DNA from: Trichomonas gallinae
Lineage: Eukaryota
Assembly (NCBI GenBank): GCA_008369845.1
Contig: MRSU01008806.1
Span: 1-37,166, forward strand
Reading direction: 5' to 3'
DNA: 37,166 nucleotides
Shown: positions 8,985-35,295 of the stretch, piece by piece
How the letters are laid out: each line of letters opens with the position of its first letter
How positions within the stretch are numbered: position 1 is the stretch's first letter
Translations under genes and position numbers: made by a program
Notes under the pieces: model-generated
Seen by the model: only the letters and a program-made list of their open reading frames with translations
Databases searched by the model: none
What the model was told of the DNA's origin: nothing

Positions 8985-11417
8985 TTATTTTGCATCCATT
9001 CCTTTGAGATCTACTGCAATAACAGATATATTATCCATACTTAGCAGTTCGAATGCCATGTTCTTGATATCAACAGCGAGTTCTGCAGCATTTTTGGCTT
9101 TCTTTGCGATTCTTCCAACATCTTCGTTACTTAATACATCATAGACACCATCGCAGCATATAATGAGCCATCTTTCATCACCTACAATGTTCCATGTCCT
9201 AATAACTGGCTCGTGTCCAACTCCTGTTACATCAAAGTCACCAAGCGAGCTAGAAACAGCCAGAACGTTATTAACTCTGTGCTTGAGAATGTATCCACGC
9301 TCACTTAATATGCGTTTGATCTCCGCCTTATCATCCGGTTTGTGATCTTTCGTGAAATGAGAAATAGAACCATCATCTTTAACGACAATTGTCCTTGCAT
9401 CGCCTAAATGGCACGAAATTATCTGTTTGGAAGGTGTTATAACAGCTAATGCCATTGTAGATCCGTCGTTATAATTCATATTTTTAAGTGTATTCAGTGT
9501 TTCTTTGATGCAGCCAGCCATTTTGTCTTCATCTATGGTTTGTAGCTTCGATATCCTATAATATAACTCATAAGCTGAATAATTCGATGTGTTTTGGCCG
9601 CCGTGACCATCAAGGACTGCGAAAACGTGAGCACCATTTGGAGCAAATGGATGACATATTATAGCATCTTCTTGTGTCGGTCTGACGCCTTTCATCTCTG
9701 AGAAGCTGCACCATGAACACTTTGGAACGATTTTTCTGCGGAAAGATGGTTCTCCAGCACCATAAATGACTTCTCTAACAGACACTGGGATTTCGTCTGA
9801 GAATTTCACTTTGGTATTCGATATATCTACATTTTCGAGGTTTGGAATCTGTGCAAAAAGCAAAGTTTGTGCCAGAGGATTATCAGATACCTTCAGGGAG
9901 ATGATATTCTTTAAAGCAATGTTGGATAATTGCGAAATTCTGTTGTGTGATAAATCTAAATCTTCAAGCTGAGGGAAATAAAGCTCCACGCTATCTCTAA
10001 TGTCGTTATGTGAAAGGTCTATAATCTCCATGTTATCAGGGAACTTCGGAAACTCTTTAAATCTGTTCCTAGAAAGAAATGCATTTTTTAATTTCGGAAA
10101 ATAAGGCAAACTCGTCAATTTGTTGCCACAGAACGATATTGTTTCAATATGTTCAAATGCCTCAAAGTTTGGAAGTTTTCTAAGCTTACAATAACTCATT
10201 GCAATAATTTGACAAGTTTTTGGTAAATTATCAGCATGTTTGATTGGATTCATGGACAATGAGATCTGTATTGGGTTCATTTGCTTAAAATCTTCAGGAA
10301 TTTTTGAAATTTGATTATCTTGGAAATGAACCTGTTGTATTGTTGTAAATTCAAGCAGACGCTTTGGGATTTCCGTGAGTTTGTTCCTTGAGAAATTCAA
10401 GAACTTTAAATTAGGTCCTACAGAATCTGTTGGAATTGTTGAGATTTCGTTGCAGAAAATGTAACAATTCGTCGCGTATTTAACCATCCTTGGATAAGTT
10501 TTGATTTTGTTTCTTACCAATATGCAAGTCATAAGATTTGGCAATTCAAAATCTTCAATTTCTGAAATTTCGTTATCATAGAGTTCTAAGTCTTTTAATG
10601 ACTCAGGGAGCTTAGGAATTCTCTTGATTTTGTTCTCATGAGCATCAAATTTGGTTAAATTCACTAAATTAATAATTGAATCGGGAATTTCTTCAATAAG
10701 ATTGTCGCTAATTGCTAGTTCTTGAACTGTTGCAGGAAGGTTAGGGAATTTATTCAGATAATTATTGCTGGCGTCGAATATCATTAAATTTGGACAATAT
10801 TGAACTAAATCTGGTAATTCTTGTATATCATTCATTGGTATTTCGAGTCTTGTCATTTGAAGGCATTCTTTCTTAAACGTAAATTGCGAAATTCTGTTCA
10901 TAACCATTGAAAGACTCACTAAATTCGGGGCATTGAGTTTCACAACTCTGATAAAGTTAAAATTCGCGTTGAAGCTCTTGATTGTAGATGGGAGAAGAGG
11001 GAATTTAATGAGTGCGTTTTGAGATATATCAATAACTTCAACTTCTAGTTGACTGAAATCGACATTTTCGATGTTGTTAGCATATAATTCGAGAGTCCGT
11101 AGTGGTTTGTGTGCTAATAAAAGCGGAGGAATAGAACCGATCTTGTTCGATGATAAAATTAATGTTTTGAGTTTGTTAAGTGTACAAATGACTTCAATAA
11201 TCTGTTGTGGAATCTCAGTGTAACCGTTTTCGCTCAATACAAGCATCTCTAGCTCTGTAATATTAGGGGGTAATTTTTGCAAATGGTTGGCTGATGCATT
11301 TATTCGCTTCAAACGGTTATTATTAGGTATATGATAAGGAATTTCCGTATGTCCGCCTTCAACGAACAAGACTTCCATGTTTGAAGAGACTTTTGGATGT
11401 GATTGATGATTCCCCAT
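8985..11417 (-). CDS. Leucine-rich-repeat protein with C-terminal PP2C (PPM) phosphatase domain
   Basis: Many LxxLxLxxNxI repeats followed by RPTQED, VLDGHGG, DGST, HLGD, DHKP, LAVSSSLGD, CCDGVYD and DNIS motifs; N-terminus MGNHQS fits MGxxxS. Confidence 0.93.
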   Translation of the reverse strand: MGNHQSHPKVSSNMEVLFVEGGHTEIPYHIPNNNRLKRINASANHLQKLPPNITELEMLVLSENGYTEIPQQIIEVICTLNKLKTLILSSNKIGSIPPLLLAHKPLRTLELYANNIENVDFSQLEVEVIDISQNALIKFPLLPSTIKSFNANFNFIRVVKLNAPNLVSLSMVMNRISQFTFKKECLQMTRLEIPMNDIQELPDLVQYCPNLMIFDASNNYLNKFPNLPATVQELAISDNLIEEIPDSIINLVNLTKFDAHENKIKRIPKLPESLKDLELYDNEISEIEDFELPNLMTCILVRNKIKTYPRMVKYATNCYIFCNEISTIPTDSVGPNLKFLNFSRNKLTEIPKRLLEFTTIQQVHFQDNQISKIPEDFKQMNPIQISLSMNPIKHADNLPKTCQIIAMSYCKLRKLPNFEAFEHIETISFCGNKLTSLPYFPKLKNAFLSRNRFKEFPKFPDNMEIIDLSHNDIRDSVELYFPQLEDLDLSHNRISQLSNIALKNIISLKVSDNPLAQTLLFAQIPNLENVDISNTKVKFSDEIPVSVREVIYGAGEPSFRRKIVPKCSWCSFSEMKGVRPTQEDAIICHPFAPNGAHVFAVLDGHGGQNTSNYSAYELYYRISKLQTIDEDKMAGCIKETLNTLKNMNYNDGSTMALAVITPSKQIISCHLGDARTIVVKDDGSISHFTKDHKPDDKAEIKRILSERGYILKHRVNNVLAVSSSLGDFDVTGVGHEPVIRTWNIVGDERWLIICCDGVYDVLSNEDVGRIAKKAKNAAELAVDIKNMAFELLSMDNISVIAVDLKGMDAK

Positions 11418-11480
11418 ATAATATTGATTGCCTCAGAATTTAAATCTTTGACATAATCCAAGGTCCATTCAATTTTCGCA

Positions 11481-11680
11481 ATTTACGTGTCATATCTAAA
11501 TTTACAAGACATATATATTATTTTACACGACAAATTCTATTTCAACTTTGTAATTTACATGACAAATTATTATTTTACATGCCAATTTTATTCTAATCTG
11601 TTTGTAAATTTTTGACATGATACTAAAATCATTCAATTAACGTTATTTACATGACATTTTAAAATTTACACGACAAATTT
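11481..11680. repeat. Array of irregularly spaced direct copies of TTTACAYGACAAATT
   Basis: Copies at 11522, 11554 and 11665 (full match), 11574 and 11646 (near match), 11482, 11501 and ~11612 (degenerate), all in one orientation. Confidence 0.7.
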
Positions 11681-11961
11681 TCCAAATTTTACTCTCATTT
11701 GATTAAACAAAACACTGTGACTAAAGAAGCAATATTACATTAAACAGTAATTGTTAAGTTTTGGAATGAGAACAAATTTATATTAAAGATAAAAACCATT
11801 AAGCAATTAAAATTTGATTTGGTAATGGAAAACTTTAGTCTAATAAGCTGGAGTTTGGGTTCAAATTAGTAACTTTTGAACAAATGGAAAAAATATTTGT
11901 TCAAAATGATTCCATATTGTATGGATTGATGATAAAATGGACTAATAAAGATTTTTAAATT

Positions 11962-12106
11962 CTGTGTGTTAGTTTTTTTTTTTAATTTTTTTTTGCAAAA
12001 GATTAAATGGGCTCAGGGTGGTCAACATTCATCAGAAGAGTGGTTCAGATGGCCGTTGGTAAATTATCTTCCTCGCCCTTAAACCTTCTGCTAATATAAT
12101 ACATAC
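11962..12106 (-). other. Spliceosomal intron, 145 nt, trichomonad consensus
   Basis: 5' GTATGTATT starting at 12106; exact fused branch point/3' splice site ACTAACACACAG at 11973-11962. Confidence 0.85.
12009..12078 (-). ncRNA. Box C/D snoRNA (intronic), predicted to target 18S rRNA helix 34
   Basis: GGGC/GCCC terminal stem; C-like box GAGGAAGA 12074-12067; D' CTGA 12048-12045; C' TGATGA 12034-12029; D CTGA 12016-12013; guides ACCAACGGCCAT and ACCACC complementary to the conserved 18S sequence GGUGGUGCAUGGCCGUU. Confidence 0.85.
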
Positions 12107-12133
12107 GAAGTTTGTTTTGTCTCCTTCAGATAG

Positions 12134-12153
12134 AAATGTAGAGCCAAACCGCT
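12134..12153 (-). promoter_or_regulatory. M3-like motif (AGCGGTTT) plus initiator-like ACATTT
   Basis: AGCGGTTT at 12153-12146 followed by ACATTT at 12139-12134 (predicted +1 at 12137); resembles described T. vaginalis Pol II core promoter elements. Confidence 0.5.
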
Positions 12154-12966
12154 ATTTTTGAATTAATAATAATCGTATTTAACCTTATTCATTTTTATTC
12201 ATTTGATTTTTTTGAAGAACTCCAAGGGATAGAAACTTTGTTTGCCCATTAAACATATAGTATTCATGTAAAATAATAGAAAATGATTTTAAATCTTTCT
12301 TTTATATTGTCTCCAAAATTGGATCATATAATTAACCTGATACATATAATTCGCAACTATAATTTGTTTATACATAGTAAGTATATTATATTTCTTCAAG
12401 AAAACTCCATTATTATCAGGAAAAAGATTTGATTAAATTCAAATCTTTAGTAATTTCTCATAGTTTTCACATTTTACTATGATAATATATTTCAAATTTT
12501 AGAATATAAATCAATTCTAGATTGTCAAAATCTTTTAACTTATATTGAAAGAATTATTCCAAGTCTATGTTTGTGAGAAAAACGATTATTTTTATCGTTT
12601 TTTATCAAATTTTTCATTTAAAAATAACGATTTCTTTAGCAGATTGATATGATAATCTTATACATCAGTTGGTAACATATTGGACTGAAATAATAAAAAT
12701 TAAAATTACTCAATTAATATGATGGAAAATCTCAAAAATCGGATTATGTCAAAATTATTTTATTACAAAATATTGATTTTAATCAATAATACATCCGATG
12801 TATTGGAGAAAATTTTTCAATACTCTTTCAAAAAAGTGACAAATCATAAAAAATTGAAATCTGATCTGAAAAAAGTTTATTAAATATAATGTTATATTAT
12901 CAATAAATATTATCCGAAGTTTTTGATGAGGTGTCAAAGAAGTTTTGCCGTCAAATTCCAAATTTC

Positions 12967-18894: not shown

Positions 18895-21237
18895 TTATAA
18901 TACAGCTTGGAGTGACTTTAACTGTTCATGGTGGGCTGGTGATGTTTTGAGCAACTCTTTCGTGACTTCTGGAAGTCTCTGCCTTGAGAGGACTTTTGCG
19001 ACGTTTTTGTCTGCCAGGTAGATGGCCTTCAGGGCCTCGATTGCCTGAAGCATTGTTTCCTCAGCTTTGAGCAATTGGAGCAGTTTTGGAACTGCAAATT
19101 CGAATCTGTGGCTCATAATTTGAGGATGATTGGTGCAGAACGTGAGAACTTCGTTTTTGTCTTCATCTTTGATGACGCAGTTGGCTGTAATCTTAGATTT
19201 CTTGAACATATCGAGATGCTCTGGACCAATCTTAAATCCTGAGATGCACTGGATGCAGAGTGATGGCATTGTCTCGGAAATTTCTTCGAGGAAGGTCAGA
19301 AGATAAGGAAGAGTCAAAACTTTCTCTGGGACGACTTCTGCGAGTTTCTTCAGCAATTTGGCTGTTGACTCCTTATCAGGGAGTTCGAATTCGATCCAAT
19401 CTGGGTTCTCAATGAAGTATTTCGAAACATATGAATCATCGAGCAAAGAAATCAAGATTTTGTTCGCTGTCTTGTAGATCCTTGATGCCTTGAGAATGGC
19501 GTGAATGATCTTTGAGTTGATTGGGAAGTTTTCAGCGTTTCTCAAATATTTGAGTGTAGATTCGACTGTTTCGTCAGTTGAGAGATGCTTAAGTAATGCT
19601 CTCAAATGGAGTTCGACATCGAACTGTTTGATGAGGATCAAACCTTCATAGCAGCAAGAAATAACTGTATAATCTTCAGAATCGTACAACATGTCTTCAA
19701 ACATGGATCTGACTCTCTCATCCCAATGGGCGGACTCATCCAAGATAGCCAGAAGCAATTCGAAGTATTTCTCCTTCGTGTTGTCGTAAATCAATTTTCT
19801 CCAGTCAGTGACAAGGAGCTTCAAGGCTGGTGATGATCTTGAACGCTTGGCGATCTTAAAGAGGATGCTGATGACGTCTGTTGGATATTTTGTGATCATT
19901 CCGCTTAAAATCTCGCGAATTTCCTGATCTAAGTTATCATCTGTGAAAGCGACGAGTTTCTGGAGAACCTTGACACTCTTTTCGTGGAAAAAGTTGATTG
20001 GAAGATATTTGTAAATGCCGGAAGCCAAGATTTGATCGATATTCTTTTTATCGAGTAAAGATTGGTTGATAATCGTGACAACTCTTGATGTTTTCTCATC
20101 ATTAGGCGATGCTTGAAGCTGCTTTGTTGCGTCAGCGTAGAAAAGCTGGACTTTTTCATTTTTGATAAATCTTGGATGGGCTAAGCAGTTGTCGAAGTTG
20201 TATTCCTGGTCCTCGCTGCCAACTGTGCTCTCTGACTGCTCGTAAATCCTGCTTTCTTCATCAGAATCGTCGGCTCTCATAATTCTGACTGATGGGAGAG
20301 TCGAAATGAATTCTTTGACCTTGGCTTCATTGTATCCTGGGAAGACAGCCTTGAATTCGCAAAGTATGTTGATAATTTCTCTGAATGTTGGTCTAGCTTG
20401 AGGATTTGCATCCCAGCAGCGCAAAATGAGATCTCTCATGCCAGGATGGAGATGCTGTGGTAGCTGTGGCCTCATTCCCTTGAGGACTTCTCTTAAAACT
20501 GTCGAAATTTGAATTCCTTCGAACGGTCTTGTCAAAGTGTTCATTTCGTACAAAATCATACCGTACGAATAGACGTCTGCTGAGAGTGAGTATTCGCTGC
20601 CTCCAACGATTTCTGGGGCCATCCATTGAGGAGTTCCTGTGCATTTTGTCATAACAACAGATAATGAGTTTCTCGAAACGCCAAAGTCGCAGATAAGCGG
20701 CAGGTAGTTCTTGTTCAAGAGAATGTTCGACGATTTGAGGTCTCTGTGAATAATCGAAAGATTATGAAGGTATTGCATGCCTACTGCAATGCCAATTGCG
20801 ACGCGCATGAAAATTGTTGACGGATACTTCTTCTGCTCCTTCATAATCTGAATGAAGTCGCAAAGATTTCCATTTGTGGCGAGTCTCGTGGCGACAGAGT
20901 AAGGATACGTGTTTGTAAATCCTACGAATGGTATGACGAATCTCGATTGACATCTAACAAGGATTTCTACTTCCATTAAAAAGTGTTTTAATTCAGCTTT
21001 TGAAAGTTCTTCATTAAATAGGATTTTAATGGCGGCAGTGCCTTTTCCATCCTTACTCTTGCACTTCCATACCTCACCAAATGTTCCTGCGCCGATTTTC
21101 TTTTCCATCGTGTAATTAGCGAGATCTATAACGTAGTCTTTAAGTTCTGGTGAGATAGTGATGGACTTTTTGCGTTTGACTTTTCGCATGTGTGTTGATT
21201 TGGTGCGCACAGCCACCTCTTGGCGTTCTCTGTCCAT
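18895..21237 (-). CDS. TKL-type protein kinase with long helical (ARM/HEAT-like) C-terminal region
   Basis: GAGTFGEV, AIK, HRDLKSSN, DFG, GTPQWMAPE, DVYSYG, CW...RPTF; Leu-rich helical C-terminal ~430 aa. Confidence 0.92.
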   Translation of the reverse strand: MDRERQEVAVRTKSTHMRKVKRKKSITISPELKDYVIDLANYTMEKKIGAGTFGEVWKCKSKDGKGTAAIKILFNEELSKAELKHFLMEVEILVRCQSRFVIPFVGFTNTYPYSVATRLATNGNLCDFIQIMKEQKKYPSTIFMRVAIGIAVGMQYLHNLSIIHRDLKSSNILLNKNYLPLICDFGVSRNSLSVVMTKCTGTPQWMAPEIVGGSEYSLSADVYSYGMILYEMNTLTRPFEGIQISTVLREVLKGMRPQLPQHLHPGMRDLILRCWDANPQARPTFREIINILCEFKAVFPGYNEAKVKEFISTLPSVRIMRADDSDEESRIYEQSESTVGSEDQEYNFDNCLAHPRFIKNEKVQLFYADATKQLQASPNDEKTSRVVTIINQSLLDKKNIDQILASGIYKYLPINFFHEKSVKVLQKLVAFTDDNLDQEIREILSGMITKYPTDVISILFKIAKRSRSSPALKLLVTDWRKLIYDNTKEKYFELLLAILDESAHWDERVRSMFEDMLYDSEDYTVISCCYEGLILIKQFDVELHLRALLKHLSTDETVESTLKYLRNAENFPINSKIIHAILKASRIYKTANKILISLLDDSYVSKYFIENPDWIEFELPDKESTAKLLKKLAEVVPEKVLTLPYLLTFLEEISETMPSLCIQCISGFKIGPEHLDMFKKSKITANCVIKDEDKNEVLTFCTNHPQIMSHRFEFAVPKLLQLLKAEETMLQAIEALKAIYLADKNVAKVLSRQRLPEVTKELLKTSPAHHEQLKSLQAVL

Positions 21238-26108: not shown

Positions 26109-28637
26109 TTATTTCAGTATGGTAATCGGAATAACAATGATATAAATATTGATATGAGATGGATTTTCAACACATGTGTGAAATTTAGCAGCATTTTCAA
26201 TGAACATTTTGCAGACTTGATCAAGACCAAATTTAACGCGGATGTTGCAGAATGTTGAGAATGGATATGAGCTGTCAACATAGATTGACTTCTGAATGCG
26301 CTGGATAACTGAGATTGTGACTTCATCTGAACAATCTTCGCTACCACTGTAGAATATACATAGGTGGATGTACGCAAAAGAGCCACTGACCATCTTGATG
26401 TCTGAGTTAGACAAGTTCAGTGTCTCGATGCTCAAGCATCGCTTGAATGCCTCATTGTTGACTGTGCATCCTGGAAGACTCACGATTCTCAGAAGCTCGT
26501 TATATGCGAATGCGAATGCATCAATCGCTGTGCTGTCTTCTTTGATGATGATTGATGTTATCGACAAGTTGAAGAAAGAGTAGTCACCAATCATCGAACC
26601 TCCTCGAATCGTGATATTTCCAGAAAGTTTTGTTCCATAGAATGCATGACTTCCAACTCCGACGCAGTTCTCTATATTGGGGAATCTCGACATAGAAGAA
26701 CAATTACAGAACGCGTAGCTTCCAATATTATTCAAATTTGGAACTGTTATTGATTCCAAACTAGTGCAACCATAAAATGTATAGTCTTTGATTCTCTTTA
26801 ACTTTTGGAAGGCAATAGTTGAGATCTTATGGCAGTTATAGAAGGCATAGCAGCCTAAACTTGTCACTGAAGGAATGGTAACTTGAGATAACTCGATACA
26901 ATCATACAAAACTTTAGCACCAGCAATAGATAACTCTTGAAAATCAATGCTTGTGATTTTGCTGCAACCATAAAATGCACAGTTGCCAACACATTTAAGC
27001 TGTTTAAAACTAAATCTTTTTAAATTTGTGCACATGAAAAAAGAATATGAACCAACACTTGTTAATTCATCAAATATTAGATTATCAATTAATGAACAAC
27101 CTGAGAATACTCCGCTTTCTATATTATTTAAACTAGGAGCACTCATTGTTGGTATATTGCTATTGTTAAGAAATGATTCATTTCCGAGAAATGTTAATTC
27201 AGGAAATTCAAGATTATTCATCAAATTTGTAGCAGCGAATGCTCTACGTTCTACTCTTGTTAGTTTCGGTGCAATTAATGTATTTAAGTTTTCGCAGTTT
27301 TCGAATGCACTCTCATTGATTGTTTGGAGATGTGGCAGATTTAATATTTGAATATTGGTTGAATAAAATGATCTAGCGCCAAAAGATTCTAATTTTGGAA
27401 AATTCACCGTTGCTAATTTTTCACATGAATCGAATGCGTAATCCTCAACAATTCGAAGTTCTTTCAAATCAAGTTCCTGCAAATATTTACAATTTTTAAA
27501 TGCTGATTCTCTTATTACTTGGACTTTTGGTAAATAAATATTTTTAATAGGATATCCGGACATTGCGCTTACATTGATTTCTATTGTAGAAGGCAAGAAT
27601 ACATTTGTTGTTATATACATAATAAGTTCATTAAGTATTGATTGATTAAAAATTGTAAGATTTTCAACTCTAAGATTTGTGTAATCGTCTTCAAAAACTA
27701 AACTTGCATTTGAATAATCTATCTGATTTATGAATAAATTATCCACAATTGTATGGTCAAAAGCATCTTTTCCTACATACGTTAGGTTGCCAAGAGTGAG
27801 CTTACTTATTTGCTTATTTTTAAGGCTATTTTCAGCAATTTTTCCAACTTTTGGCGCATACAATTCATCAATTTTAACAGAATCATCCCAAAATACACGA
27901 TTTAATGTTTCTAATTCAGGAAAGAACAGAATTCCAAAACTGTAACAGTTTGTAAATGCGAATTTATCAATTGTTTTGAGTAAAGTTGCTGAAATATTAA
28001 ATTTACAGTCATAATATCTTCTGGAATCGTAAAAAAAGTTATATAACTGGACTAAAGAAGGAAAATTATAATGATTCACATGCTCCCATTTGAAAAAGCT
28101 ATTAAAATATTTATTATTTATTGTAAGATTATTTATATAGCAATTATAAAATAAATTGTCACGGTTATCAATCAGCATACCTACATAAATCGATTCAATA
28201 TTATATTTATCAACATTTGGTTCTATTTCAGAAAATGTGTCAATTATGAAAAGATCATATGTTCCATCAAATGAAAATGCATTGCCACTGGACGTTATAT
28301 TTTCAAAATATGCATTTTTCAATGATTCACATCGACTGAAAGCAAAAGCTGATATAGAAACAGTTCCAAAACATTTAATATATTCAATTCCGGATCCATC
28401 AAAGGATTGATATCCAATTGATGAGATGCTCTCAGAGATCTCAACTTTCTTTAAATGCTTGCATCTCTTGAAGCATCTATCTCCGATAGTATTGTTTGGG
28501 CCATCAACTCTAATTTCAGTAAATGATTGATCAAGTGTACAAGCACCATCCTTATAGTATTGGTAAGCATTATAACTATCAATTAATACATATTCACAAT
28601 GTAATTTTTTGAAAAAGTTAAACGAAAGTAAAAAACT
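26109..28637 (-). CDS. BspA-like (TpLRR) surface protein; start codon unresolved
   Basis: Many LxxIGxxAFxxCxxLxxI repeats in an uninterrupted frame of >840 codons; first in-frame ATG only at 28178; 5' coordinate set at the start of similarity with the paralogue. Confidence 0.85.
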   Translation of the reverse strand, partial: SFLLSFNFFKKLHCEYVLIDSYNAYQYYKDGACTLDQSFTEIRVDGPNNTIGDRCFKRCKHLKKVEISESISSIGYQSFDGSGIEYIKCFGTVSISAFAFSRCESLKNAYFENITSSGNAFSFDGTYDLFIIDTFSEIEPNVDKYNIESIYVGMLIDNRDNLFYNCYINNLTINNKYFNSFFKWEHVNHYNFPSLVQLYNFFYDSRRYYDCKFNISATLLKTIDKFAFTNCYSFGILFFPELETLNRVFWDDSVKIDELYAPKVGKIAENSLKNKQISKLTLGNLTYVGKDAFDHTIVDNLFINQIDYSNASLVFEDDYTNLRVENLTIFNQSILNELIMYITTNVFLPSTIEINVSAMSGYPIKNIYLPKVQVIRESAFKNCKYLQELDLKELRIVEDYAFDSCEKLATVNFPKLESFGARSFYSTNIQILNLPHLQTINESAFENCENLNTLIAPKLTRVERRAFAATNLMNNLEFPELTFLGNESFLNNSNIPTMSAPSLNNIESGVFSGCSLIDNLIFDELTSVGSYSFFMCTNLKRFSFKQLKCVGNCAFYGCSKITSIDFQELSIAGAKVLYDCIELSQVTIPSVTSLGCYAFYNCHKISTIAFQKLKRIKDYTFYGCTSLESITVPNLNNIGSYAFCNCSSMSRFPNIENCVGVGSHAFYGTKLSGNITIRGGSMIGDYSFFNLSITSIIIKEDSTAIDAFAFAYNELLRIVSLPGCTVNNEAFKRCLSIETLNLSNSDIKMVSGSFAYIHLCIFYSGSEDCSDEVTISVIQRIQKSIYVDSSYPFSTFCNIRVKFGLDQVCKMFIENAAKFHTCVENPSHINIYIIVIPITILK

Positions 28638-33081: not shown

Positions 33082-35295
33082 TCAATGATTATAATATGCG
33101 TAAATAAGATGAAATGTATAAGGGTTAATAAATGGAAAGATTTCTGAGCATGTTTGCTGAATTTTGTCACATTTTATTAGTGCATCACATGCTTGGTTTA
33201 AGCCTCTTCGGACACTAACATTACAGAAAGTGTCTTTTGGATAATTATCACTAACGAAGACTGATTTTTGAATTCTTTGTATTATTTGTCTTGTGACATC
33301 ATCTCCAATATCATCTGTGCCAATATAAAACACGCATATTTTAACTTGATTGAATGATCCAGAATAGAATTGAAGACTTGAAGTGTTTTTAAGATTCATT
33401 GTTTTCAGATTTAAACAATAATCAAACGCCTGCCTCTCAATCATGCAACTGGGAAGACTTACAGAATGGAGAAGTTCATTATATGCAAAGGCATTCTCTT
33501 CAATAATTGTTTGATCATTACTAATGATTAAATTTTGAATTCTCATATTGTAAAATGAAAATTTACCAATTCTCATTCCACCCAATATTTCCAAATCACC
33601 ACTTATATTTGTATCATAGAATGCTTTTTCACCAATGAACATAACTGTTGGAAAGTTTGGAAAATGTTTCAATAGTCTGCATTGTGAAAAAGCAAACCTA
33701 CCAATAAAGTTTACAATTGGTACTTTAATTTCAGATAATTTTATACAATTAAAAAATGTGTATTCATTGATCCTTTGCAGTTTCGGAAAATTGATGTTGT
33801 TCAAGTTTTGGCAGTCATGAAAAGCAGAAAAGCCAAGGCTTGTTACATTTTGGATCTTTATGGAAGATAATTCGGTGCAGCCGTAAAATGCATTGTTTCT
33901 GATTGTTTCAACATTGTTCATCTCTATGTTATCAATCTTGATACAGCTTTGGAATGCAGAAGAACCTACCGTTTGAAGTTTGTCGAATTTGATCGAAGAT
34001 AAAGAAGTGCATCCAAAGAAACAATTGTCACCAATTGTTGTTGCTTCTAGAATCTCGATGTTGTTCAATGATGTGCATCCTGAGAAAGCACTGTTGCCAA
34101 TTGTTTTAACATTTGGCATTAATATACTTAGATTAATTATATTCATAAATGATTCATCACCAATTGAATCAAGTATTGGGAAATTAATATTATTTAATCC
34201 TGAGTTCGCAAAGGCACGGTCCCCAATACTTGTCACTTTGGAAACATCAAAAGAATTTAACAGAGTGCATGATTCAAATGCGCTTTTACCTATTGTAAGA
34301 AGTTTGGGGATAACTACTGTTGTAAGAGATGTGCAACCAAAGAAAAAGCGATTACCAATTGATGTCAACTTGCTCAGGTTTATATTTTTTAGTTTTAAAC
34401 ATGATTCAAAGGAACTTTCTCCTGCATCTACTAGTTCAGGAAAATTTAAAGAAGACAACGAGTTGCATCCAAAGAATGATCGAGAGCCTAAACTTTTCAC
34501 TTCGGGAAAATAAACACTCGACAGTTCGTTAAATCCTAGCGCGCCATTGCCTATTGATTCGAGTTTTGGAGCATTAAAATGAAAGGTAGAATTTGTTGAA
34601 CCTATTAGAAAACTATTAATGAATGCTTCATCTGGTATTTCAATCAAATTTGGAAAATTGATAGTAAAATTTTCATTAACATTGATAGTAATATCTTCTC
34701 CACGATCGTAATCATAGTATATTGGCTCAATGTATTTAAAGCCCCCATTAATGAACTTATTATTAATTGTTATATTTTTTGGATAGCATAAGAAAAAGAT
34801 ATTAGATTCAAAAGAGTAAATAGATTCAAATGATAAAATAGTTTCAACTTGAATTAGATCAATTATATGGATTTCCCTCATTCGATTATCTATATCGCTC
34901 CAATCGAAAATATTATGGAGTGAAGTTAGATTCTCAAAATACATTTCTTTTAACGAATAACTTCTATAGAATGCATTCGATTCAACATTTGTAGTTCCAT
35001 GACAATAAACATATTCAATTTCTAAATAAGCAAATGCATATTCCTGAATTGTTTTAATTTTATTAGAAATGTTAACTTTCTTAATATTATTGCATAATAA
35101 AAAACAACGACTTCCAATTGTATCACTCTCACCATCAATATAAATTTCCGAATACGTAGAATTAAGAGAGCATTCATAATAATGACGTCCATTTTCATAT
35201 TTGATTAATTTATTGTATTGGTCATCTCCATATTCAGTAATTAGGACATATTCGCGATGTAGTTTGGTAAAAAGGAAAGGAAAATCTAAAAAACT
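33082..35295 (-). CDS. BspA-like (TpLRR) surface protein, paralogue of 26109-28637; start codon unresolved
   Basis: 620-aa ORF from ATG 34944, but the frame is open for 118 more codons to TAA 35301-35299 and that extension is homologous to the N-terminus of the paralogue. Confidence 0.85.
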   Translation of the reverse strand, partial: SFLDFPFLFTKLHREYVLITEYGDDQYNKLIKYENGRHYYECSLNSTYSEIYIDGESDTIGSRCFLLCNNIKKVNISNKIKTIQEYAFAYLEIEYVYCHGTTNVESNAFYRSYSLKEMYFENLTSLHNIFDWSDIDNRMREIHIIDLIQVETILSFESIYSFESNIFFLCYPKNITINNKFINGGFKYIEPIYYDYDRGEDITINVNENFTINFPNLIEIPDEAFINSFLIGSTNSTFHFNAPKLESIGNGALGFNELSSVYFPEVKSLGSRSFFGCNSLSSLNFPELVDAGESSFESCLKLKNINLSKLTSIGNRFFFGCTSLTTVVIPKLLTIGKSAFESCTLLNSFDVSKVTSIGDRAFANSGLNNINFPILDSIGDESFMNIINLSILMPNVKTIGNSAFSGCTSLNNIEILEATTIGDNCFFGCTSLSSIKFDKLQTVGSSAFQSCIKIDNIEMNNVETIRNNAFYGCTELSSIKIQNVTSLGFSAFHDCQNLNNINFPKLQRINEYTFFNCIKLSEIKVPIVNFIGRFAFSQCRLLKHFPNFPTVMFIGEKAFYDTNISGDLEILGGMRIGKFSFYNMRIQNLIISNDQTIIEENAFAYNELLHSVSLPSCMIERQAFDYCLNLKTMNLKNTSSLQFYSGSFNQVKICVFYIGTDDIGDDVTRQIIQRIQKSVFVSDNYPKDTFCNVSVRRGLNQACDALIKCDKIQQTCSEIFPFINPYTFHLIYAYYNH

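What the first reader, a model, noticed from the sequence alone, without database searches (positions are those of the whole stretch)
11930..12153. Hidden spliced non-coding gene whose only intron carries a box C/D snoRNA
Seen: in an 'intergenic' gap the minus strand has GTATGTATT (12106) and the exact 12-mer ACTAACACACAG (11973-11962), the same signals as the kinase intron in this window. Between them is a GC-richer 70-nt cassette with terminal stem and C/D'/C'/D boxes in the right order. The flanking exons have no ORF: exon 1 is ~31 nt with no ATG, exon 2 opens with a TAAA signal and its first ATG gives only MESF*. An M3-like plus initiator-like promoter precedes exon 1. Known: trichomonads have very few introns, found mainly by searching protein-coding genes; non-coding snoRNA host genes are familiar from animals. 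Inference: an intron kept solely to release a snoRNA, which could help explain spliceosome retention in an intron-poor lineage and may represent an overlooked intron class. I do not know of a prior description but cannot verify novelty.
Basis: partly seen in the sequence, partly recalled or inferred. Interest (0 to 1): 0.92.

Follow-up and report, generated by a model that had tools for sequence, protein, structure and literature searches.

The report
Trichomonad orphan introns carry snoRNAs
Between two genes of a trichomonad parasite, perfect intron signals enclose a small guide-RNA sequence that matches ribosomal RNA, and nearly all of the unexplained 'inactive' long introns listed for two related species look the same by eye, so these introns are likely spliced out of tiny non-coding transcripts to release guide RNAs.

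Summary
Real. Window 12106-11962 (minus strand) is a 145-nt trichomonad type A intron signal pair around a box C/D cassette (0 of 2000 shuffles, 0 of 15 chance motif pairs pass the same rule). Its 12-nt D' guide is the exact complement of trichomonad 18S rRNA. The orthologue sits among the unexplained 'inactive' introns of T. vaginalis and T. stableri, with the same guide and splice signals and a different but still pairing outer stem. By eye, 17 of 18 and 16 of 17 orphan long introns there hold C/D cassettes, against 0 of 22 long protein-gene introns. [quoted passage not shown] Splicing of this unit is not shown: the T. vaginalis orthologue has no RNA-seq support, though the predicted spliced product is near the 70-nt read floor. 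The layout is known from Candida, and a 2008 paper mentions T. vaginalis intronic snoRNAs as unpublished data. New member of a known kind.

The parts
12146..12153 (-). M3-like core promoter motif AGCGGTTT (predicted)
   Evidence: Only match in the 294 nt upstream of the intron; 15 matches in the whole window, about 0.01 per 50 nt. Consensus recalled; Motif 3 described.
12135..12140 (-). Initiator-like TACATT; predicted start at A12137
   Evidence: Loose match only; strict consensus TCAYW not met.
12107..12137 (-). Predicted exon 1, about 31 nt, no ATG
   Evidence: start site inferred.
11962..12106 (-). Predicted type A spliceosomal intron, 145 nt
   Evidence: matches the type A consensus and length range; orthologues of 135 and 137 nt.
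12100..12106 (-). 5' splice site GTATGTA
   Evidence: same in both orthologues.
12082..12091 (-). Outer stem, 5' arm (pairs with 12004-11995)
   Evidence: Fold; flank shuffle test.
12009..12078 (-). Box C/D snoRNA cassette, 70 nt, closed by GGGC/GCCC
   Evidence: weak Rfam hit to archaeal sR39, 23 bits, below its 50-bit cut-off.
12067..12073 (-). C box AGGAAGA (degenerate)
   Evidence: ACGAAGA at the same place in both orthologues.
12049..12060 (-). D' guide ACCAACGGCCAT, exact complement of trichomonad 18S rRNA; extendable by two G-U pairs
   Evidence: 18S probe and crRNA targets; 20-mer with flanks identical in both orthologues.
12045..12048 (-). D' box CTGA
   Evidence: CTGC and CTGT in the orthologues.
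12029..12035 (-). C' box CTGATGA
   Evidence: 13-mer with the next bases identical in both orthologues.
12017..12028 (-). D-side element, partly conserved; its last 6 nt could pair just upstream of the D' target; role unresolved
   Evidence: too short for a standard guide.
12013..12016 (-). D box CTGA, 43 nt before the branch A
   Evidence: CAGA in the orthologues.
11995..12004 (-). Outer stem, 3' arm
11962..11973 (-). Fused branch point and 3' splice site ACTAACACACAG; predicted branch A at 11969
11924..11961 (-). Predicted short exon 2 with UAAA signal at 11957-11954; end inferred 10-30 nt after it
   Evidence: UAAA-to-end distance. End not observed.

Best explanation
A perfect trichomonad intron signal pair encloses a conserved box C/D guide sequence that matches 18S rRNA, and it is likely spliced out of a tiny non-coding transcript made only to release that snoRNA. 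Inferred steps: RNA polymerase II starts near 12137 behind an M3-like motif; the outer stem closes the snoRNA and brings the splice sites to about 48 unpaired nt; the spliceosome removes the 145-nt intron; the lariat is debranched and trimmed to a 70-nt uncapped RNA bound by Snu13, Nop56, Nop58 and fibrillarin; the D' guide pairs across 18S helix 34 and, by the D+5 rule, directs 2'-O-methylation of the first C of AUGGCCGUU; the joined exons (about 50-70 nt) are discarded. It is one member of a class that makes up nearly all orphan long introns of T. vaginalis and T. stableri.
For: Shown in sequence: signals and boxes, not chance. Guide complement in trichomonad 18S. Orthologues in two species keep guide, C' region and both splice signals, while the outer stem changes its letters and still pairs (read by eye). 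By eye 17 of 18 T. vaginalis and 16 of 17 T. stableri orphan type A introns have C-like box, D', and D box plus closing stem; CTGA occurs 65 times in that table and once in 30 protein-gene introns. None of the 18 T. vaginalis orphans is marked as near an ORF. The T. vaginalis counterpart of the downstream gene is on a 20.33 Mb sequence, the intron at 20.93 Mb of chr II, so they are not linked. Stem-shortening fits known long introns, 24-47 nt. A 2008 remark says T. vaginalis intronic snoRNAs appear to lack TMG caps. Indirect: a T. stableri C/D intron of 101 nt lies 13 gene numbers from TAF6, as does a PCR-validated 102-nt T. vaginalis intron.
Against: No junction read, lariat or small RNA is shown for this unit. 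The T. vaginalis orthologue is listed as 'No RNAseq evidence', the T. stableri one as 'Not assembled, Low coverage'; 14 of 18 T. vaginalis orphans have no RNA-seq evidence and 7 of 17 T. stableri ones 'No SJ reads'. A long-read study validated only 11 of 33 type A motif candidates, all in protein-coding transcripts, and called the 102-nt intron pair unresolved; that intron's sequence was not seen and its strand label differs from the T. stableri row. Seven T. stableri members overlap predicted genes, so not every host need be non-coding. C box degenerate, initiator loose, no Rfam family. The tally is by eye and the scoring rule was written after I had seen these sequences.
Confidence: 0.8

Rival explanations
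1. The spliceosome acts on the precursor but the exons are never joined: the first step alone (branching) frees the snoRNA's 5' end and nucleases finish the job.
For: Junction reads are absent or too few in short-read and long-read studies despite perfect signals. The 12-mer is conserved as one block in all type A introns, so its AG does not prove a second step. Spliceosomal cleavage of fungal telomerase RNA is a recalled precedent.
Against: A joined product of about 50-70 nt would fall at or under the 70-nt read floor of the RNA-seq study, so absence is expected anyway. The probable class member at TVAGG3_0105790 gave a spliced PCR product (orthology inferred).
Confidence: 0.1
2. A stand-alone snoRNA gene read from its own promoter; the splice signals are unused remnants or serve some other processing role.
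For: Promoter-like motif only about 75 nt upstream of the cassette; no splicing evidence; loss of splicing around snoRNAs happened in yeasts.
Against: Both signals are letter-perfect in three species while nearby spacers and the outer stem have changed; 34 rows of the orphan table hold the exact 12-mer, which unused sequence would not keep (that list was selected by motif, so only the cross-species match counts fully).
Confidence: 0.05
3. A 5' UTR intron of the downstream LRR-PP2C phosphatase mRNA (ATG at 11417) that hosts the snoRNA.
For: Same strand, 544 nt upstream; UTR introns exist in T. vaginalis (10 of 63).
Against: 14 upstream ATGs and a UAAA at +5 in that stretch, and an initiator-like TCAAT 10 nt before the phosphatase ATG; in T. 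vaginalis the phosphatase counterpart and the intron are on different chromosomes.
Confidence: 0.04
4. Chance arrangement of motifs in AT-rich DNA.
For: Each box is short and the C box is degenerate.
Against: 0 of 2000 shuffles, 0 of 15 chance motif pairs, 2 of 512 window tiles (one being this unit); orthologues in two species; rRNA complement.
Confidence: 0.01

Closest known systems
Candida monocistronic non-coding hosts with one intronic box C/D snoRNA (snR50 type; Donovan et al. 2016, PMC5033589, passages read; Mitrovich et al. 2010 seen only as cited there)
   Same: One C/D snoRNA in the intron of a transcript without coding potential, in a lineage that has lost most introns; GTATGT donor.
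   Different: Parabasalid lineage with only some tens of introns in all; branch point fused to the 3' splice site; D box 43 nt from the branch A; predicted exons of about 30 nt; splicing shown by RNA-seq in Candida, not here.
Vertebrate non-coding snoRNA host genes UHG/SNHG1 and GAS5 (recalled)
   Same: Exons are dispensable, the intron is the product.
   Different: Those have many introns and long exons; here one intron and one snoRNA per unit.
Type A introns of T. vaginalis and the 'inactive' set (Callejas-Hernandez et al. 2025, PMC12316389; Wang et al. 2018, PMC6260720; Hudson et al. 2019, PMC6679479)
   Same: Same 5' motif, same 12-mer, length within 50-196 nt, internal stem that shortens the distance between splice sites; the orthologue is row 6 (T. 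vaginalis) and row 8 (T. stableri) of S3 Table.
   Different: Those papers treat the orphans as possibly inactive remnants or set them aside; the word snoRNA does not occur in the main text of the three; the 2025 paper notes only in general that 5' UTR introns can hold small nucleolar RNA genes.
T. vaginalis box C/D snoRNAs of Chen et al. 2009 (PMC2817412, passages read; sequence supplement unreadable)
   Same: C/D guides for rRNA in the same lineage.
   Different: [quoted passage not shown] Whether it is among the eight could not be checked.
Yeast snR40/snR55 and human SNORD32A/SNORD33, guides for 18S helix 34 (recalled)
   Same: Same helix region of the small-subunit rRNA.
   Different: Their sites lie about 8-10 nt upstream; this guide points at the C just 5' of the position acetylated in yeast and human (numbering recalled). 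No Rfam family matches.

Membership tests
Box C/D methylation-guide snoRNA | C box and D box at the ends, closed by a terminal stem | tested here: met
   AGGAAGA (2 mismatches, kink-turn GA kept), CTGA, GGGC/GCCC.
Box C/D methylation-guide snoRNA | Internal D' and C' boxes | tested here: met
   CTGA at 12048-12045 and CTGATGA at 12035-12029.
Box C/D methylation-guide snoRNA | 10 or more nt antisense to rRNA directly before D or D' | tested here: met
   12 of 12 nt match trichomonad 18S probe and crRNA targets; this organism's own rRNA was not available.
Box C/D methylation-guide snoRNA | Guide and boxes conserved across species | tested here: met
   20-mer and 13-mer identical in T. vaginalis and T. 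stableri.
Box C/D methylation-guide snoRNA | Accumulates as a discrete RNA with fibrillarin; target is 2'-O-methylated | not testable with these tools
   No read data could be laid.
A named Rfam snoRNA family | Score at or above the family's gathering cut-off | tested here: not met
   0 matches in the window; best on this unit sR39 23 of 50 bits.
Trichomonad type A spliceosomal intron | 5' GTAYGT and 3' ACTAACACAYAG | tested here: met
Trichomonad type A spliceosomal intron | Length 50-196 nt with a stem that shortens the unpaired span | tested here: met
   145 nt; 15 + 33 = 48 unpaired nt, one above the 24-47 nt listed.
Trichomonad type A spliceosomal intron | Removal shown in RNA | tested here: inconclusive
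   Orthologues: 'No RNAseq evidence' and 'Not assembled, Low coverage'; that label is not defined in the paper's text.
Non-coding snoRNA host gene | Exons without coding capacity | tested here: met
   No ATG in exon 1; longest ORF in the 544 nt downstream is 31 aa.
Non-coding snoRNA host gene | Own transcription unit, not a neighbour's UTR | tested here: inconclusive
   M3-like motif and UAAA and lost linkage in T. vaginalis favour it; no transcript ends seen.

The most novel reading that the evidence does not exclude
Trichomonads use the spliceosome as their main box C/D snoRNA-making machine: about a third of their long introns sit in throw-away transcripts whose exons may never be joined, the branching step alone freeing the guide RNA, so that rRNA methylation depends on a spliceosome with few other substrates.
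Probability: 0.15. Interest if true: 0.9.

Novelty: new member of a known kind. Interest (0 to 1): 0.72.

Why it matters
It gives a testable answer to a puzzle that has stood since 2005: about half (22 of 41) of the perfect intron motif pairs first found in T. vaginalis lay in apparently untranscribed intergenic DNA and were set aside, and a 2025 survey still lists 18 such long introns as possibly inactive. [quoted passage not shown] It also adds a deep-branching, very intron-poor lineage to those that keep snoRNAs in non-coding hosts.

Tried and rejected
No genome is held for the window, so no genome-wide scan in this species. Sequencing runs: no RNA holder listed, so no reads were laid. Metagenome scan for the intron signals with a loose D box gave 15 loci, none AT-rich or trichomonad-like, none with a cassette; all 15 were kept as chance controls. 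The same pattern in viral contigs gave 0. An 18S-type motif in viral contigs gave 2 loci without rRNA. The 18-nt guide in prokaryote genomes gave 37 loci, 0 of 37 with both splice signals (one search had used a motif one letter too long and found none). Rfam: 0 at gathering level; sR39 resemblance rejected as box-only. The long-read paper's five supplements do not list the orphan loci. A second methylation target for the D-side element was considered and left open (6 nt only). An acetylation-guide role was considered and set aside because the guide pairs straight across the CCG instead of flanking it (mechanism recalled). Four papers that may bear on novelty were not held: Simoes-Barbosa 2008 RNA, Simoes-Barbosa 2012 RNA, Vanacova 2005, Smith 2011; Mohammadi 2025 was seen only as a reference. 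The scan's own notes held nothing for this sequence or genome. Sequences from the papers' tables were read by eye and by motif counts, not aligned or scored by program.

Full report
Setting. The window is 32% GC and gene-dense. The nearest named relatives of the two flanking proteins, an amino acid transporter and an LRR-PP2C phosphatase, are from Trichomonas vaginalis at 49% and 66% identity, so this is a trichomonad other than T. vaginalis. No genome is held.

Observation. On the minus strand GTATGTA (12106) and ACTAACACACAG (11973-11962) bound 145 nt. The pair occurs once in the window and in 0 of 100 shuffles. Inside is the most GC-rich 70 nt of the gap (51% against 24%): GGGC, C box AGGAAGA, an 18-nt guide region, D' CTGA, C' CTGATGA, a 12-nt element, D CTGA, GCCC. 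A box-and-stem rule fired on this intron, on 0 of 2000 dinucleotide shuffles of its interior, on 0 of 15 chance motif pairs from metagenomes, not on the kinase intron, and on 2 of 512 window tiles, one of them this unit. I wrote the rule after seeing the sequences, so these figures flatter it. A 10-bp outer stem extends the snoRNA stem (z -3.1, 0 of 200 shuffles; 7 of 500 when only the flanks are shuffled) and leaves 48 unpaired nt between the splice sites, next to the 24-47 nt listed for T. vaginalis introns. The kinase intron of the window shares the first nine letters but has T at the first place of the 12-mer.

Target. A full-text search with the 12-nt guide and its complement returned 3 papers. 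Two were opened and are trichomonad 18S assays: a T. vaginalis 18S probe contains the complement (PMC4393084, passage), and a crRNA target shared by P. hominis and T. foetus 18S contains the guide letters (PMC12701322, passages). The third was not opened. By the D+5 rule (established knowledge) the methylated base would be the first C of AUGGCCGUU in helix 34. That this is the base 5' of the acetylated C of yeast and human rests on recalled numbering.

Orthologues and class. S3 Table of Callejas-Hernandez et al. 2025 (PMC12316389; read: text parts 2 and 4 of 7, passages, S2 and S3 Tables whole, two rows of S1) lists motif-defined introns without RNA-seq validation. A window 20-mer (guide plus the start of D') and a 13-mer (C' onward) each occur exactly twice in it: T. 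vaginalis row 6 (chr II 20930438-20930572, 135 nt) and T. stableri row 8 (137 nt). Both keep the splice signals and have an outer stem of different letters that still pairs (by eye). Of the 34 T. vaginalis rows, 18 are long with the canonical signals; 14 short ones and 2 long ones lacking the 12-mer were left out of the tally. By eye, 17 of those 18 have a C-like box, an inner D' and a D box followed by the arm of a closing stem (2 bp only in row 4); row 7 has a perfect C box but no clear D box. Of the 20 T. stableri rows, 17 are long; 16 of 17 pass, the exception being the counterpart of row 7. They make about 15 families in T. vaginalis, 12 of them with a T. stableri counterpart in the list. 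Row 16's guide also matches the 18S target; other guides match universally conserved rRNA stretches that I know from recall only. Control: of 30 protein-gene introns in Hudson et al. 2019 (PMC6679479; passages and Additional file 6 whole), 22 are long and 0 of 22 show a cassette by eye; CTGA occurs once in that file and 65 times in S3 Table.

Host. Exon 1 has no ATG; the 544 nt down to the phosphatase ATG hold 14 ATGs, a longest ORF of 31 aa and TAAA at +5. An M3-like motif, rare in the window (15 matches), lies 40-47 nt before the intron; the initiator match is loose. UAAA lies 10-30 nt before transcript ends in T. vaginalis (PMC13548475; abstract, Results, Discussion read), which would give a joined product of about 50-70 nt. 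None of the 18 T. vaginalis orphans is marked as in or near an ORF. The T. vaginalis phosphatase counterpart lies on a 20,331,443-nt sequence, shorter than the intron's position on chr II, so the two are unlinked there if both refer to the same assembly. Seven T. stableri members overlap predicted genes, which I could not examine.

Is it spliced? Not shown. The T. vaginalis orthologue has 'No RNAseq evidence'; the T. stableri one is 'Not assembled, Low coverage', a label kept apart from 'No SJ reads' but not defined in the text. Reads there were trimmed to at least 70 nt, at or above the predicted product size, so silence is expected, but it is also what the rivals predict. The long-read study found 33 type A candidates by motif and validated 11, all tied to protein-coding transcripts; 8 of its 49 candidates had long-read junctions without a PCR product, and they are not listed in the supplements I could search. 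One indirect lead: T. stableri row 7 (101 nt, clear cassette) is 13 gene numbers from TAF6, and so is the 102-nt T. vaginalis intron at TVAGG3_0998030, whose paralogue gave a spliced PCR product. Its sequence was not seen, the strand labels differ, and the long-read study calls it unresolved.

Mechanism. Shown: signals, boxes, stems, rRNA complement, conservation. Inferred from the known pathway for intronic snoRNAs (described for yeast): Pol II transcription, splicing, debranching, exonucleolytic trimming, snoRNP assembly, methylation, decay of the exons. I put this at 0.8, a first-step-only route at 0.1, a stand-alone gene at 0.05 and a UTR intron at 0.04.

What is known. Single C/D snoRNAs in introns of non-coding transcripts are the common form in Candida (PMC5033589, passages), and snoRNA-bearing introns are among those kept in intron-poor fungi (PMC8476143, passages). 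For trichomonads the record is split. Chen et al. 2011 call intronic snoRNAs highly unlikely (PMC3228867; part 2 of 5 and passages). Wang et al. 2018 set aside 22 of 41 motif introns as intergenic (PMC6260720; section 11 and passages). Simoes-Barbosa et al. 2008 write that T. vaginalis intronic snoRNAs appear to lack TMG caps, as unpublished data (PMC2588526, passages), so at least one group knew of some. I found no description of this class in searches (30 of 62 listed; 25 of 77; 20 of 20; 20 of 57; 3 of 3; 15 of 53; 6 of 6), judged mostly from listings. Four likely papers were not held and the supplements of Chen 2009 and the FASTA files of Chen 2011 could not be read, so an earlier description cannot be excluded.

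Verdict. Observation confirmed; reading supported in its core; splicing untested. New member of a known kind, notable because it likely explains a whole published set of orphan introns. Interest 0.72.

Noticed in passing
window 16249-15808 (-): The kinase intron is 442 nt, more than twice the T. vaginalis maximum of 196 nt; removing it gives one 730-aa frame and joins the two halves of the Pfam kinase domain; its two ends are predicted to pair in a long stem.
   Followed up: partly
window 16187-16176 (-): A second branch/3' splice-like 12-mer, TCTAACTCGCAG, lies 74 nt into the kinase intron; using it would stop the protein at 395 aa, a possible regulatory or recursive site.
   Followed up: partly
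window 11874-11906: A perfect 12-bp hairpin with a 9-nt loop about 55 nt after the 3' splice site; it could mark the host's 3' region.
   Followed up: no
window 11441-11679: Degenerate direct repeats (four 21-nt copies, two 74-nt copies) upstream of the phosphatase gene, with single inverted copies near 12265 and 12741.
   Followed up: no
window about 19620-19766 (-): The only other tile passing the C/D rule lies inside a kinase ORF with a lower score; probably chance.
   Followed up: no
window 26109-28178 and 33082-34944 (-): Two proteins whose repeats look like BspA-type leucine-rich repeats by eye; not scanned.
   Followed up: no
PMC12316389 S3 Table, T. vaginalis row 7 and T. stableri row 14: Nearly identical in the two species, with a perfect C box and the same guide as row 17, but no clear D box: an atypical small RNA.
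   Followed up: no
PMC12316389 S1 Table, primer for TVAGG3_0105790: The listed primer beside the validated 102-nt intron begins with an M3-like motif, as in front of the window's unit (consensus recalled).
   Followed up: no
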